The notes beneath the pieces are model-generated. The model made no database searches. It worked only from the letters and a program-made list of their open reading frames with translations, and was not told where the DNA came from. Source: a virus. Taken from it: a DNA stretch of 64,000 nt. The position numbers were made by a program, and so were the translations under genes. Positions 48,707-51,230 of this stretch are shown piece after piece. Position 1 is the stretch's first letter. Every line of letters begins with the position of its first letter. Where the stretch lies: positions 7,254 through 71,253 of IMG/VR virus record IMGVR_UViG_3300031853_000023; one strand, 5' to 3'.

Positions 48707-49597
48707 ATGTAGATAGCAGCAATTATATGTGGAATATTAGCCGTTATATGCGGCATTATCGCTATTATTTATTGTTCAAAACGAACAATAAAATTAAATA
48801 TATAGCAATAGAGATATTTAAAAAACCTAAGTGAAAAAATTATTGACGCTTCTCATTAGGTAGAGTAGATTACTAAAAATATGAAAAAACAAAGATAGAA
48901 AGCAGAACAAGAGCAATAGAAAATCGAAAAAGAAATATAGTTTTATAAAAATTCTGCGGAAAAGGAAGCTAAATAGTTACAAGAACTATAGGATAAAAAA
49001 AGTATAGTAATTACTGAATTAGGCATTGGTTTAAAAGAAAAGGATAAATTAAATGAGGATATAAAAAAATTAAAAAATACATTAGCCGCCGCAACAGAAA
49101 ATGAAGTAAGAGAAAGATAGAAAAAAGAAAAAATTAATTTCTATAAATTAACTATTTCAGATGAAGATTTGGCGGATGTTGAAATGTTGGAAAAATTAAA
49201 AGTTTCTTTCCATAAACCTGTTGTATTAAGTAAACTTATATGGACTCAATATTTTCAAAAACAAATGACTGATTTATGTAATAGAGTTCTTGGTAAAAAA
49301 ATAGTTTGTGGTATTTATAAAATAACTAATACAATTACAGGTGAACAATATATAGGGCAAAGTAAAAATATAGATGATAGGTGGAAAGCCCATTGCAAAT
49401 GTGGACTTGGAATAGATGCTTCTGCAACTAATGCCTTATATAATAATATGCAAAAATATAAAGTTTGGAACTTTACTTTTGAATTATTAGAAGAGTGTCC
49501 GCCTGAACAACTTAATGAAAAAGAAGCATTTTGGATTTAGTCTTATCAAAGTAATATATATGGATTAAATACACAAAAAGGAGTTACAAGGAAATGA
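48707..49597 (+). CDS. Single frame containing an N-terminal TM helix, about 130 aa of coiled coil, and a C-terminal GIY-YIG nuclease domain; about 14 in-frame TAG. It may be a fusion, or a free-standing homing endonuclease starting at an internal ATG (about 49265).
   Basis: RBS AAAGGTGA then ATG at 48707. IAAIICGILAVICGIIAIIY TM segment. GIYKITNTITGEQYIGQS..RW..H. TGA at 49595..49597 overlaps the thyX ATG. Confidence 0.4.
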
Positions 49598-49822
49598 AAT
49601 TTGAGAGTACTTATGTAGGAAATTTTGAAGGAGCTATTAGAGGAATGAGGAACCCTCTTGCAAGCTGGAATAATAGTGATAGCAAATGGGATGGAGATAA
49701 TTACATTATAGGTGAAAAAGATATAGATTTGGCTCAACGTCTGATAAAAGCAGGTCCAGAACATCGTAAATTTTTAAGACAAATATTCGTTTGTGTTGAC
49801 ATAACAGCTCCACTCTATTGGT
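49594..49822 (+). CDS. thyX: Flavin-dependent thymidylate synthase ThyX, exon 1
   Basis: G.FEGAIRGMRNP.. and HRKFLRQIFVCVDITAPLYW align with ThyX [25 protein letters not shown]. Confidence 0.55.
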
Positions 49823-50805
49823 AAAATTTCTGCCAATGAAAGACTTTTCCGATTCATCATCGGGGTATTAATAAAAGATTAATGCTAACGAGGGTAAAAT
49901 CTCGTGGGAAAATATGTGTCAAAATCTTATAAAGTTATAGATACATCTTTTATATATAATAGAAAGGAATGATTATATATGGAAAGAAAATCTAAACCGA
50001 GACAAGATTTAACAAATCAAAAATTTAATTATCTTACTCCTATTGAATATATTAAAGGAGGAAAATGGAAATGCATTTGTGATTGTGGGAAAACAACTAT
50101 TGTTGATACAAGAAATTTAAAATCAAATCATACAAAAAGTTGTGGTTGTAAAATAAAAGAAACCAAAAATGTCATTGATATGATAGATTTTGAAAATAAT
50201 GGAATAAAAGTTTTACGTAGAAATGGTTCTGATAATCAACAAATTGCATTATGGGAATGTTAGTGTAAATATTGTGGAAATATATTCACCACAAGAGGAA
50301 GTCATTTACGAGATGGTTCAGTTCAAAGTTGTGGTTGCATAAATTCAAAAGGATAGCAAGAAATTACAAAATTTTTAATTAAAAATAACATAGAATTTGC
50401 AAAGCAATATACTTTTCCTGATTTACAAGACAAAAGAAAATTAAGATTTGATTTCGCAGTTTTTTATCAAGGACAACTTCAATATTTAATTGAATATAAT
50501 GGATAGCAACATTATAAAAAATCATAGGGTTCTTGGAGTGATGGTTTTGAAATTTTACAAAAGCATGACCAAATGAAACGTGATTATTGTAAATAGCATA
50601 ATATTAAATTAATTGAAATTAAATATGATGAAAAAATAAGTGACATATTACCTGTATCGACTATCTCCTAAGCCTTCCGGGCAGGAGAGTAGGAATGCTA
50701 TTGATACGCATTTAAGTTTTAGGAAACGAAGCTTATGAAAACCGAAAAGGTCTCCTTACTATTTAGTAAGTAAAAAATAGTCAGCGTCTACCGTATCCTT
50801 AGACG
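49823..50805 (+). mobile_element. Group I intron in thyX, homologous to the gyrB intron, carrying a homing endonuclease
   Basis: P1 pairs AUUGGU with GCCAAU (49832..49837) and has a U.G wobble at the splice site. P7 has GACUAUC at 50657.. and UAGUCAG at 50778... P9 is CGTCT/AGACG. The 3' junction is placed at G50805 to keep ThyX length, but G50816 is also possible. Confidence 0.5.
49979..50671 (+). CDS. Intron-encoded endonuclease (N-terminal Cys4 zinc ribbon plus C-terminal nuclease fold with the motif D..IEYNG.QH) with 4 in-frame TAG
   Basis: ATG at 49979. TAG at 50261, 50351, 50507 and 50594. TAA at 50669..50671, overlapping the P7 5' strand. Confidence 0.45.
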
Positions 50806-51230
50806 GGAAAGAAATGGATACCTATAAGGTTGCAACAGTTGCTAATAGTACATCAACAATGCACAAATTAGCCTCTACTCCAATTACTCTTGATTGTTTT
50901 GAAACGGATGATTTTGAAGAAGATTTAGAGTATTTTCAAGGAAATACAACAGGAATGTTATCTGAAGTCATAATTGAACAACTTGAATTTTTAAGACAGC
51001 AATATAATGAAACAAAAGATGTTCGTTATTGGAAAGAACTTATTAGATGGCTTCCTGAAAGCTGGTTACAAAAAAGAACTTGGACTGTTAATTATGAAAC
51101 AATTAGAGCAATTTGTTCTAAAGGTCAACGCCGCAATCACAAGCTCTCAGAATGGCGTGTATCATTTATTAATTGGGCAAGAACACTTCCCTACGCAAAA
51201 GAATTTATTTTTGATGATGAACAAGAATAA
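50806..51230 (+). CDS. thyX: thyX exon 2
   Basis: RTWTVNYETIRAI..SEWR aligns with the ThyX segment WTVNARSLMNFLNLR..AQWE. The usual RHRx7S motif is not conserved at the junction (it reads ..WWKEMDTYKVATVANST). Confidence 0.45.

What the first reader, a model, noticed from the sequence alone, without database searches (positions are those of the whole stretch)
49594..51230. thyX split by a homologous group I intron with a zinc-ribbon/nuclease-fold endonuclease; the ThyX RHR motif appears divergent
Exon 1 matches the ThyX N-terminal half up to ..ITAPLYW. Exon 2 carries the ThyX C-terminal half (WTVNYETIRAI..EWR). The intron 5' region (CCGATTCATCATCGGGG..GCTAACGAGGG) is clearly homologous to the gyrB intron (CCGCTAATCAGCGGGG..GCTAACGAGG). 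It has the same P7 strands and a P9 hairpin. The endonuclease ORF (49979..50671) runs into P7. With the junction that preserves ThyX spacing (exon 2 from 50806), the protein reads APLYWWKEMDTYKVATVANST where ThyX has [21 protein letters not shown]. The canonical RHRx7S dUMP-binding motif is therefore not conserved. Either the 3' splice site lies elsewhere (G50816 is an alternative) or this ThyX is atypical.
Basis: partly seen in the sequence, partly recalled or inferred. Interest (0 to 1): 0.65.

Follow-up and report, generated by a model that had tools for sequence, protein, structure and literature searches.

The report
Intron-split ThyX-like phage gene
A phage early gene for a protein with the fold of the flavin-dependent thymidylate synthase ThyX, but without ThyX's signature RHR motif, is split by an ordinary mobile self-splicing (group I) intron carrying its own nuclease gene; the splice junction is right, and the real oddity is the large uncharacterised protein family.

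Summary
Exon 1 (49594-49822) and exon 2 (50806-51230) are separated by a 983-nt group I intron (49823-50805). Its P6a loop holds a 230-codon endonuclease ORF (49979-50671), which is intact only if its five in-frame TAGs are read as sense.

The junction U49822|G50806 is fixed by evidence. An intron-less relative reads the same 32 nt across it, and uninterrupted 217-aa homologues are 98% identical. The alternative site G50816 breaks the frame.

The RNA has P1 with U·G, P10, P3-P9 and ωG, and several helices covary across about 80 relatives. Its core matches the T4 td intron, although Rfam's model does not detect it.

The protein is not a canonical ThyX. It has no Pfam or NCBIfam hit and belongs to phrog_6721 (unknown function; over 4,000 50%-identity clusters). 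RHR is replaced family-wide by T/S-Y-K.

The intron is ordinary; the protein family is a worthwhile lead.

The parts
49594..49822 (+). Exon 1 of the ThyX-fold gene: codons 1-76 (..DITAPLYW) plus the first base (T) of codon 77. It has no in-frame TAG.
   Evidence: ORF list and translation. tblastn of the spliced protein splits at residue 76|78 in the same-site alleles L003, L066 and L067.
49823..50805 (+). Group I intron, 983 nt, of the T4 td-like (IA-type) kind. In unspliced RNA, translation stops at TAA 49822-49824.
   Evidence: The boundaries are fixed uniquely by the intron-less allele L120.
49817..49837 (+). P1/P10 region. The 5' exon strand ATTGGT (49817-49822) pairs with the internal guide GCCAAT (49832-49837), with U49822·G49832 at the splice site. 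TTTCT (49827-49831) can pair with the first bases of exon 2, GGAAA (50806-50810), as P10.
   Evidence: Read directly from the sequence. The gyrB intron has the matching compensated P1, AAGGGT/GCCCTT. RNAfold of the ORF-deleted intron recovers P1.
49841..49845 (+). P3 5' strand AGACU. It pairs with GGUCU at 50749-50753.
   Evidence: In 55 of 78 related introns the strand's own partner gives a full 5-bp complement. Partner permutations give 19.5 ± 3.1 (maximum 28 in 200). There are 34 distinct strand pairs, mostly lying just after the conserved GAAAxG junction.
49849..49884 (+). Two hairpins between the P3 5' strand and J3/4: hpA CCGAT/ATCGG (49849-49863) and hpB TATTAAT/ATTAATG (49866-49884).
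   Evidence: hpB cells are 87% paired against 52% after shuffling. hpA has 40 distinct stems, 47 of 73 fully paired. The T4 td intron has no hairpins at this position.
49885..49917 (+). J3/4 (CTAA), P4 ACGAGG (49888-49893) / TCTCGT (49900-49905) enclosing a short P5 loop, P6 5' strand GGG (49906-49908), and P6a 5' strand AATATGT (49911-49917).
   Evidence: P4 is 99.6% paired with A-U/G-C covariation at 39:39. The block resembles td CTAAACGGGG...CCCGTGCTAAA.
49979..50671 (+). Intron-encoded homing endonuclease ORF of 230 codons. It has two C-x-C-x-C...SCGC zinc-ribbon-like repeats plus a C-terminal nuclease domain, and five in-frame TAGs. An RBS-like AAAGGAA lies upstream. The ORF sits in the P6a loop and its 3' end overlaps P6a', P6', J6/7, P7 and P7.1.
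   Evidence: phrog_559 (E 1.6e-33, residues 10-222 in one stretch across all TAGs), phrog_9084 'homing endonuclease' and phrog_7140 'intron encoded nuclease'. A weak DUF2726 hit. Copies are 99% and 72% identical at the same site in L003 and L066.
50643..50653 (+). P6a 3' strand ACATATT (50643-50649) and P6 3' strand CCT (50651-50653).
   Evidence: P6a is 60% paired against 39% after shuffling across relatives. The gyrB intron has the compensated pair AAACTAC/GTAGTTT.
50659..50782 (+). Catalytic core, 3' half. P7 GACTAT (50659-50664) pairs with ATAGTC (50777-50782). P7.1 is CTCCT/AGGAG (50665-50669 / 50683-50687). P7.2 is GAATGC/GCATTT (50693-50698 / 50708-50713). An extra hairpin lies at 50713-50735. 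The conserved block GAAAACCGAAAA is at 50737-50748. The P3 3' strand is at 50749-50753. P8 is CTTACTA/TAGTAAG (50755-50761 / 50764-50770). J8/7 is TAAAAA.
   Evidence: RNAalifold on 107 unique 3' halves gives many compensatory pair types in P7.1 and P7.2. P7.2 is 97% paired against 62% after shuffling. The order and sequence resemble the td core GACTATCCCTTTGGGGAGTAGGG..GAAAC-GATAG..ATAGTC.
50785..50805 (+). P9 hairpin CGTCTA/TAGACG, ending in the terminal guanosine ωG50805.
   Evidence: P9 covaries in relatives. The intron end is fixed by the intron-less allele.
50806..51230 (+). Exon 2: the last two bases of codon 77 (GG), through ..KEMDTYKVATVANSTSTMHK..QRRNHKLSEWR..DDEQE, to the stop TAA.
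48698..49597 (+). Free-standing GIY-YIG endonuclease gene immediately upstream. It has 12 in-frame TAGs, and its stop overlaps the target's start codon (ATGA).
   Evidence: The syntenic 296-aa homologue in L120 carries Pfam GIY-YIG.
42052..43089 (+). Sister intron of the same family in gyrB, 1,038 nt. Its GIY-YIG ORF (42257-42946, five TAGs) is in the same P6a loop. The spliced product reads ..NRLKG|LGEMSPDE.
   Evidence: An ORF-less intron sits at the same gyrB site in L061.

Best explanation
This is a mobile, self-splicing group I intron of the phage T4 td type. It carries a homing endonuclease gene in its P6a loop. It sits inside the most conserved motif (APLYW|WKEMDTYK) of an early phage gene.

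Mechanism, inferred from the anatomy:
- The 5' exon end AUUGGU pairs with the internal guide GCCAAU (P1, with U49822·G).
- An external guanosine attacks after U49822.
- P10 (GGAAA of exon 2 with UUUCU) and ωG50805 position the 3' splice site.
- The exons are ligated into an mRNA for a 217-aa protein.

The endonuclease ORF contains five TAG codons, and this phage uses TAG as a sense codon only in late genes. The nuclease is therefore probably made only late in infection. It would then cut intron-less alleles at the conserved site and drive homing.

The host protein is a true member of the ThyX fold superfamily, but it belongs to a separate, very large and uncharacterised family (phrog_6721).
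- The flavin- and dUMP-binding RHR motif is replaced by T/S-Y-K.
- A few pocket residues are kept: S93, R185 and H188, aligned with T. maritima S88, R174 and H178.
- The family sits in replication modules, and some members are fused to dNMP kinases.

I infer that it acts on, or makes, a (deoxy)nucleoside monophosphate. I also infer that it is probably not an orthodox flavin-dependent thymidylate synthase.

Shown here: the junction, the RNA architecture with covariation, the fold, the loss of the motif, and the fusions. Inferred: splicing activity, late expression of the nuclease, and the biochemical role.
For: Junction:
- The intron-less allele L120 (107-kb contig, same synteny) is identical over 16 + 16 nt around the junction and 92% identical over the 654-nt CDS.
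- Uninterrupted homologues of exactly 217 aa are 92-98% identical and read APLYWWKEMDTYK.
- phrog_6721 matches residues 2-211 in one stretch.

Intron:
- P1 with U·G, P10 and ωG are present.
- The R/S elements GACTAT/ATAGTC are present, and the core is similar to T4 td.
- The exact 15-mer finds more than 119 viral loci, including ORF-less versions.
- Covariation is seen in P3 (55/78 against 19.5 ± 3.1 permuted), hpB, P4, P6a, P7.1, P7.2 and P9.
- The same site (76|78) is occupied in divergent alleles L003, L066 and L067.
- The zinc-ribbon endonuclease occurs only at this site.

Recoding:
- There are no TAGs in the replication genes. There are 69 in a 3,142-codon structural ORF, and 5, 5 and 12 in the three endonuclease genes.
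- The same logic was published for TGA-recoded phages (bioRxiv 10.1101/2021.08.26.457843).

Protein:
- The AF2 model has pLDDT 95.5 and pTM 0.89.
- Against BFVD, viral ThyX proteins come after the family's own uncharacterised members.
- Seven of 85 family members hit Pfam Thy1 (best E 3e-4); separately, P0200, a member not in that set, passes Thy1's gathering score.
- Invariant residues R19, D43, K59, R62, Y83, S93, R185 and H188 point to a real binding site.
- The role of RHR in FAD and dUMP binding is described in PMC6514825.
- P0133 is fused to a DNMK domain and P0173 to a guanylate-kinase-like domain. A dNMP kinase lies two genes upstream in phage PMBT24.
- The gene lies in replication-module contexts.
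Against: - Rfam's Intron_gpI model does not detect this intron or its ORF-less relatives. Group I membership therefore rests on manual anatomy, covariation and similarity to td.
- Two hairpins lie between the P3 5' strand and J3/4, where td has none. The 5' domain is therefore not textbook.
- P7 and P6 are invariant in my sample. This is partly because the sample was collected with a 15-mer covering them, so they give no covariation evidence.
- Profile-profile comparison of the family with ThyX is statistically weak (hhalign E 0.08). The residue-by-residue mapping is uncertain by ±1 around S93 (compare).
- Invariant K59, R62 and K84 lie where ThyX binds the FAD phosphates. Flavin binding, and even thymidylate synthesis, cannot be excluded.
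- Fusion to dNMP kinases would also fit a genuine dTMP synthase.
- No transcript or protein data exist.
- The amino acid encoded by TAG was not determined. Q is assumed, as in the database's own translations.
Confidence: 0.8

Rival explanations
1. The spliced gene encodes a working flavin-dependent thymidylate synthase. It would bind FAD and dUMP through substitute residues (K59, R62, Y83, K84) instead of RHR.
For: The full-length ThyX fold is present. S93, R185 and H188 align with S88, R174 and H178. Some members hit Pfam Thy1. Fusion or adjacency to dNMP kinases is what one would expect downstream of dTMP synthesis. The gene sits among early replication genes.
Against: RHR-x7-S is the defining ThyX signature, and its residues bind the FAD phosphates, ribityl and isoalloxazine as well as dUMP (PMC6514825). 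Both arginines are lost family-wide. So are the residues aligned with R90, Y91, T55 and R165. The window's own protein has no Pfam or NCBIfam hit. Sequence identity to ThyX is only 10-18%.
Confidence: 0.17
2. The protein is a non-catalytic ThyX-fold derivative. It could be a nucleotide sensor or binder, or an inhibitor or decoy that co-assembles with host ThyX.
For: Catalytic and cofactor residues are lost while the fold is kept. Phage early genes often encode modulators of host metabolism (general knowledge).
Against: About 30 polar residues are invariant or nearly so across members that are at most about 50% identical. Seven of them are basic residues around the former active-site elements. 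This pattern looks like a ligand-binding or catalytic site. Covalent fusion to dNMP kinases argues for a metabolic step. The known hosts (Clostridia, Fusobacterium) were not checked for ThyX.
Confidence: 0.15
3. There is no splicing. The locus is a gene broken by insertion of a free-standing endonuclease gene, leaving two dead fragments.
For: Rfam finds no intron. An in-frame stop ends exon 1, and exon 2 has its own ATG at 50814.
Against: The inserted 983 nt have every group I landmark, with covariation across about 80 relatives. The boundaries restore the intron-less sequence to the base. Both exons are under strong conservation (93-99% to L003) and have no TAGs. The same backbone also occurs without an ORF in other genes. 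A stop at the 5' splice site is also seen in the sister gyrB intron of this window.
Confidence: 0.03

Closest known systems
Phage T4 td group I intron with I-TevI (subgroup IA2)
   Same: - The host gene is an early nucleotide-metabolism-type gene.
- The endonuclease ORF lies in the P6a loop, with its 3' end abutting P7.
- The J3/4-P4 block is similar (CTAACGAGG..CTCGT here, CTAAACGGGG..CCCGT in td).
- The order R element GACTAT, P7.1, AGTAGG, P7.2, GAAAx, P3', P8, ATAGTC, P9 is nearly the same.
- In this window a stop codon lies at the 5' splice site of both introns of this family; this was not checked in td.
   Different: - In td the P3 5' strand directly precedes J3/4 and P2 lies upstream of it. 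Here P3 follows P1 directly, and two covarying hairpins lie between P3 and J3/4.
- There is an extra hairpin between P7.2 and P3'.
- There is no P9.1/P9.2; ωG closes P9.
- The endonuclease is a zinc-ribbon plus PD-(D/E)xK/Vsr-like type, not GIY-YIG (the sister gyrB intron does carry a GIY-YIG ORF).
- The ORF is TAG-recoded.
- The host gene is unrelated to thyA.
ThyX / flavin-dependent thymidylate synthase (Pfam Thy1 PF02511; PDB 3ah5, 5chp, 2af6, 4fzb) and the UMP/dUMP methylase PolB (4p5a)
   Different: Sequence identity is only 10-18%. RHR is replaced by T/S-Y-K. The residues aligned with R90, Y91, T55 and R165 are M, H, K and E. The window's protein does not reach any curated ThyX model. 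Activity is unknown.
Recoded intron endonuclease in TGA-recoded 'Agate' phages (Borges et al., bioRxiv 10.1101/2021.08.26.457843)
   Same: A group I intron endonuclease sits inside an early gene and is enriched in the reassigned stop codon. The authors propose that this delays nuclease production until late in infection. The pattern here is the same: 5 TAGs in the ORF and none in the host gene.
   Different: Here the reassigned codon is TAG, not TGA. Three endonuclease genes in the window show the pattern. The host genes differ.
PHROG family phrog_6721
   Same: The spliced protein is a full-length member (E 1.9e-54).
   Different: The family has no functional annotation. The ThyX fold, the motif replacement and the kinase fusions reported here are not recorded in that annotation.

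Membership tests
Group I intron | The 5' exon ends in U, which forms a U·G wobble with an internal guide sequence (P1). | tested here: met
   ATTGGU(49822) pairs with G(49832)CCAAT. The sister gyrB intron has the compensated pairing AAGGGU/GCCCTT.
Group I intron | A terminal guanosine (ωG) lies at the 3' end, and the boundaries restore the uninterrupted gene. | tested here: met
   G50805 is the last intron base. The spliced sequence is identical to the intron-less allele L120 over 32 nt around the junction, and no other junction reproduces it.
Group I intron | A conserved core P3-P9 is present, with P7 formed by the R and S elements and supported by covariation. | tested here: met
   P7 is GACTAT/ATAGTC (invariant in my sample). 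P3, P4, P6a, P7.1, P7.2 and P9 show compensatory changes across 78-107 relatives.
Group I intron | The sequence matches the curated covariance model (Rfam RF00028). | tested here: not met
   No hit was found in the window at the gathering score or at E ≤ 10. ORF-less relatives are also missed, although two unrelated introns in L010 are found. I read this as a limit of the model for this IA-type lineage.
Group I intron | The RNA self-splices with a guanosine cofactor. | not testable with these tools
   This needs in vitro transcription and splicing, or RT-PCR.
Subgroup IA2 (T4 td / Twort type) | P7.1 and P7.2 hairpins lie between P7 and P3'. | tested here: met
   P7.1 is at 50665-50687 and P7.2 at 50693-50713, both with strong covariation. 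The order is the same as in the td sequence.
Subgroup IA2 (T4 td / Twort type) | The 5' domain has the order P1-P2-P3-J3/4-P4. | tested here: not met
   The P3 5' strand (49841-49845) follows P1 directly. Two hairpins (49849-49884) separate it from J3/4. In td the P3 strand CTATC abuts TAAACGGGG.
ThyX / FDTS (Pfam Thy1) | The protein matches the curated family models (Pfam PF02511, NCBIfam). | tested here: not met
   The spliced protein has no hit at E ≤ 1 in Pfam or NCBIfam. Only 7 of 85 family members hit Thy1 at E ≤ 0.01; P0200, outside that set, passes the cut-off.
ThyX / FDTS (Pfam Thy1) | The RHR-x7-S signature, which binds FAD and dUMP, is present. | tested here: not met
   RHR is replaced by T82-Y83-K84, with Y83 invariant and K84 in at least 90% of members. 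The serine is probably kept (S93 invariant). The role of the motif is described in PMC6514825.
ThyX / FDTS (Pfam Thy1) | The protein has the ThyX fold. | tested here: met
ThyX / FDTS (Pfam Thy1) | The protein is an FAD-dependent homotetramer that makes dTMP from dUMP. | not testable with these tools
   This needs biochemistry or complementation.
Intron-encoded homing endonuclease | The ORF lies inside an intron loop, has a recognised nuclease domain, and is associated with a specific target site. | tested here: met
   The ORF is in the P6a loop. It matches PHROG families annotated HNH / homing / intron-encoded nuclease (E 1e-33 to 1e-24). The same ORF type is found only in introns at this same site (window, L003, L066). 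Only a weak Pfam DUF2726 hit (E 0.08) supports a PD-(D/E)xK-like fold. Cleavage was not tested.

The most novel reading that the evidence does not exclude
phrog_6721 would be a new enzyme class built on the ThyX scaffold. It has more than 4,000 50%-identity clusters, mostly in phages of gut Clostridia and Fusobacteria. It would have discarded the RHR flavin/dUMP site for an invariant Y-K/S/R/H constellation. It would catalyse a different transformation of a pyrimidine (deoxy)nucleoside monophosphate, for example a non-methyl C5 modification or a flavin-independent route. The product would be handed to the fused or neighbouring dNMP kinase for incorporation into phage DNA.
Probability: 0.3. Interest if true: 0.75.

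Novelty: new variant of a known kind. Interest (0 to 1): 0.5.

Why it matters
The intron itself is a routine example of a mobile phage intron. It is a clean one: the exact junction is proven by an intron-less allele, the homing site lies in the protein's most conserved motif, and the nuclease is gated by stop-codon recoding.

The more useful result concerns the host gene.
- A very abundant phage protein family with no annotation turns out to have the ThyX fold but lacks the motif that defines ThyX chemistry.
- Some members are fused to dNMP kinases.
- This gives a concrete and cheap experimental target in phage nucleotide metabolism: does it bind flavin, and what does it do to dUMP or dCMP?
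- It is also a warning that fold-based annotation pipelines will label these genes "thymidylate synthase" without evidence.

The large set of related introns (more than 119 loci) is missed by Rfam's model and could serve to extend it.

Tried and rejected
- Rfam on the whole window at gathering score, on 49500-51300 at E ≤ 10, and on ten loci with ORF-less relatives gave no hit to this intron family.
- Sequence searches of the PDB with the protein and with a family profile gave only chance hits.
- hhalign of the family against T. maritima ThyX alone, and against a 30-sequence ThyX profile, gave the right register but E of only 0.05-0.08. It is not usable as proof on its own.
- The first AF2 model, built from a shallow alignment, had pLDDT 74 with the motif loop below 50. 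It was replaced by a model from 85 diverse sequences.
- The afdb50 fold library was not available.
- MAFFT column-based pair counts failed for P3, hpA, P8 and P9 because of register shifts. P3 and hpA were redone by anchor-based extraction with a permutation control. P8 was not rescued.
- My first anchor script for P3 picked the wrong GAAA site and gave no signal (numeric part).
- The alternative junctions (49819/50806, 49819/50817, 49822/50817) either lose a Trp that is present in all homologues or shift the frame.
- An intein, a programmed frameshift or simple read-through do not fit. The insert is 983 nt of structured RNA with its own ORF in another frame context, and a stop lies at the boundary.
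- Literature searches for a described ThyX-like family lacking RHR, or for thyX group I introns, found nothing relevant.
- PDB sequence search with the endonuclease gave only chance zinc-finger hits.
- I did not determine which amino acid TAG encodes, and no suppressor tRNA lies in the window.
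Full report
**What is there**

The window is AT-rich phage DNA (29.5% GC). The ORF at 49594 runs 76 codons to ..DITAPLYW and meets TAA at 49822-49824. A second ORF in the region ends at 51230.

Joining T49822 to G50806 gives a 217-aa protein. It matches PHROG family phrog_6721 from residue 2 to 211 in one stretch (E 1.9e-54). 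It is 92-98% identical, over its full length, to uninterrupted 217-aa proteins in public metagenomes (P0001-P0004). Across the junction those proteins read DITAPLYWWKEMDTYKVATVANSTSTMHK, exactly as the spliced product does.

One of them, P0003, lies on a 107-kb contig with the same gene order: DNA ligase, GIY-YIG, this gene, a 122-aa protein, YorF, AAA_24, YorH, DnaB. Its DNA reads GCTCCACTCTATTGGT|GGAAAGAAATGGATAC. This is identical to the window's two exon ends placed side by side. Shifting either boundary by one base cannot reproduce that sequence. The intron is therefore 49823-50805 (983 nt).

**The intervening sequence is a group I intron**

The following elements can be read directly from the sequence:
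- The last six exon bases AUUGGU pair with GCCAAU at 49832-49837, placing U49822 opposite G (P1).
- UUUCU just upstream of that guide can pair with GGAAA at the start of exon 2 (P10).
- The intron ends in G50805.
- GACUAU (50659-50664) and AUAGUC (50777-50782) are the classical R/S pairing, P7.
- Between them lie P7.1, P7.2, an extra hairpin, a conserved GAAAACCGAAAA block, the P3 3' strand, P8 and J8/7.
- P9 closes on the terminal G.

The sister intron in gyrB (42052-43089) splices to give ..NRLKG|LGEMSPDE. It has the same blocks with compensated helices: P1 AAGGGU/GCCCUU, P3 GCUAC/GUAGC, and P6a AAACUAC/GUAGUUU.

Rfam's Intron_gpI model finds neither intron, so I collected relatives. The shared 15-mer CCTGTATCGACTATC has more than 119 exact hits in IMG/VR contigs. 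They include ORF-less introns of about 250-300 nt, one of them at the same gyrB site (L061). Rfam misses these too, although it finds two unrelated group I introns in one of the same loci. The miss therefore reflects the model rather than the RNA.

Covariation across these relatives is as follows:
- RNAalifold on 107 unique 3' halves predicts P7, P7.1, P7.2 and P9, with many compensatory pair types.
- On 78 ORF-deleted introns, hpB is 87% paired (52% after shuffling).
- P7.2 is 97% paired (62% shuffled), and P7.1 is 87% (73%).
- P6a is 60% paired (39%), and P4 is 99.6% (92%).
- For P3, an anchor-based test found a perfect 5-bp complement with the intron's own partner in 55 of 78 cases. Permuted partners gave 19.5 ± 3.1. 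There were 34 different strand pairs, mostly immediately after the conserved GAAAxG junction.

I checked my recollection of the T4 td intron against the database. It was 100% correct, and I then read the td locus. The J3/4-P4-P5-P4' block is similar. The series R, P7.1, AGUAGG, P7.2, GAAAx, P3', P8, S, P9 is nearly the same. I-TevI sits in the same P6a loop.

One difference stands out. In td the P3 5' strand abuts J3/4. Here it follows P1, and two covarying hairpins (49849-49884) lie between it and J3/4. I flag this as unusual but did not resolve it.

**The endonuclease and the genetic code**

The ORF 49979-50671 has five in-frame TAGs. This is a property of the phage, not decay of the ORF:
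- Reading only TAA and TGA as stops gives long structural ORFs with 14-69 TAGs.
- Replication genes, including both exons here, have none.
- The three endonuclease genes have 5, 5 and 12.

With TAG read as sense, the ORF matches PHROG endonuclease families across all TAG positions. It has two Cys-rich ribbon repeats and a C-terminal domain with a weak DUF2726-like signal.

Among 87 ORF-bearing relatives of this intron family, 41 carry GIY-YIG ORFs like the gyrB one. Only three carry this zinc-ribbon type: the window, L003 (99% identical) and L066 (72%). All three are at this same site in this same gene. A fourth same-site intron (L067) carries a different ORF.

An intron endonuclease in an early gene that is enriched for the reassigned stop codon has been described for TGA-recoded phages. 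It was interpreted as delaying nuclease synthesis to late infection (bioRxiv 10.1101/2021.08.26.457843). The same reading fits here.

**What the host protein is**

It has no hit in Pfam, NCBIfam or the PDB by sequence. Homologues in cultured phages are all annotated "hypothetical". They include Clostridium phiCTP1 gp68, C. difficile phiCD211, Enterocloster PMBT24, Fusobacterium Fnu1 and Desulfovibrio ProddE. They sit among clamp loader, recombinase, polymerase, helicase or primase genes, or near a dNMP kinase.

An exhaustive profile search finds 4,378 clusters at 50% identity with E ≤ 1e-3.

The next hit scores 5.5. An earlier, poorer model gave the same top five. A Foldseek search of viral models gives the family's own uncharacterised members first and viral ThyX proteins next.

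At sequence level the link is thin but real. Seven of 85 members hit Pfam Thy1 at E ≤ 0.01. P0200, a further member outside that set, exceeds the gathering score (29.3 against 24.8 bits) while carrying the family's own motif.

**The motif question**

Profile-profile alignment is statistically weak (E 0.08) but has the expected register:
- It puts APLYWWKEMDTYKVATVANSTSTMH against T. maritima [24 protein letters not shown].
- It puts QRRNHKLTEW against LRADSHAQWEI.

RHR (78-80) therefore corresponds to T82-Y83-K84. R90 and Y91 correspond to M95 and H96. T55 and R165 correspond to K59 and E174. S88, R174 and H178 correspond to S93, R185 and H188, which are invariant.

An ungapped MAFFT alignment shifts the serine by one position, so that assignment is tentative.

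According to PMC6514825, the RHR residues bind the FAD phosphates, ribityl and isoalloxazine as well as dUMP. A conserved Ser and Arg from a neighbouring subunit add further contacts. Most of these are changed here.

The replacement is not a local accident. Across members at most about 50% identical, Y83 is invariant, and K84, D81, T87, S91, T94, M95 and H96 are conserved in at least 90%.

The family also keeps seven conserved basic residues (R19, K59, R62, K84, R140, R167, R185). A phosphorylated ligand is probably still bound, and I cannot exclude FAD.

**Functional inference**

Three facts point to deoxynucleotide metabolism:
- The fold is that of ThyX.
- The gene is constantly placed in early replication modules.
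- There are natural fusions of the domain to a deoxynucleotide monophosphate kinase (P0133, PF21448) and to a guanylate-kinase-like P-loop kinase (P0173).

These fusions suggest that the domain's product is a nucleoside monophosphate that must be phosphorylated next. That fits a genuine dTMP synthase with a rebuilt site. It fits equally an enzyme making a different, perhaps modified, dNMP. Because the canonical cofactor and substrate ligands are lost, I weight the second reading, or at least "not orthodox ThyX", higher. This step is inference only.

**Verdict**

The label "thyX" should be changed to "ThyX-fold protein of an uncharacterised family", and the "other splice site" escape route is closed.

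The intron is a new member of a well-known kind, with a recoded endonuclease of a kind already reported. The protein family is a new variant of a known fold and is the part worth following up.

Noticed in passing
window 63219-64000 (runs off the window end); host ORF 61910-63220: There appears to be a third group I intron, splitting the PHP/DNA polymerase III alpha-like gene. The ORF stops at TAA right after ..GAACTTT. A td-like R element AACGACTATCC lies at 63511-63521, followed by P7.1/P7.2-like hairpins. A GIY-YIG ORF (MLIYKITNTINNKSYIGQT..) starts at 63671. Rfam did not report it.
   Followed up: partly
whole window, e.g. 683-11829 (+) and 17899-30574 (-) against 40332-48187 and 51301-55859: TAG is used as a sense codon in structural/late genes (up to 69 in one 3,142-codon ORF) and in all three endonuclease genes. 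It is absent from replication/early genes. No tRNA gene lies in the window. I did not determine which amino acid TAG encodes.
   Followed up: partly
L120 4001-4654 (intron-less allele): The intron-less relative has an in-frame TAG at the codon for the nearly invariant Glu192 (KLT*WS). The source database translates it as Q. So in that phage even this early gene has acquired one recoded codon, at a conserved acidic position.
   Followed up: no
proteins P0133, P0173, P0200 (family members): The ThyX-fold domain is fused C-terminally to a dNMP kinase (PF21448), to a guanylate-kinase-like kinase, and to DUF3310 respectively. P0200 passes Pfam Thy1's gathering score although it has the TYK motif rather than RHR.
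   Followed up: partly
proteins P0192, P0262; locus L104 9747-10883: There are other mobile insertions in the same gene family. NUMOD4 + HNH_3 endonuclease domains are read in frame within the protein near residues 126-142. A 525-nt interruption lies between residues 116 and 123 in L104. The gene seems to be a frequent target of selfish elements.
   Followed up: no
window 48698-49597: A free-standing GIY-YIG endonuclease gene (12 TAGs) lies directly upstream of the split gene, with an overlapping stop/start (ATGA). It is conserved in the same position next to the intron-less allele in L120.
   Followed up: partly
window 49841-49884, and the same region in about 78 related introns: In this intron family the P3 5' strand follows P1 directly. 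Two covarying hairpins lie between it and J3/4-P4. In T4 td the stem-loop (P2) lies upstream of P3. The conserved CUUUUCC and GGGAAA blocks could also pair, but because both are conserved there is no covariation to test that.
   Followed up: partly
window 33883-36634: A cluster resembling an RNA-repair module: an RNA ligase (PF09414 with an OB domain), an AAA_33 P-loop kinase and a calcineurin-like phosphoesterase. All three lack TAG codons.
   Followed up: no
L120 1-2593 against window 46124-48187: The NAD-dependent DNA ligase is one 687-aa ORF in the window. In the relative L120 it is called as three pieces (ligase adenylation/OB, a 236-aa ORF without Pfam hits, and BRCT). This suggests an insertion or intron in the ligase gene there.
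   Followed up: no
window 55822-56643: A 273-codon ORF with seven in-frame TAGs overlaps the end of the DnaB-like helicase gene. From its TAG content and N-terminal sequence it may be another free-standing mobile endonuclease or HTH gene.
   Followed up: no
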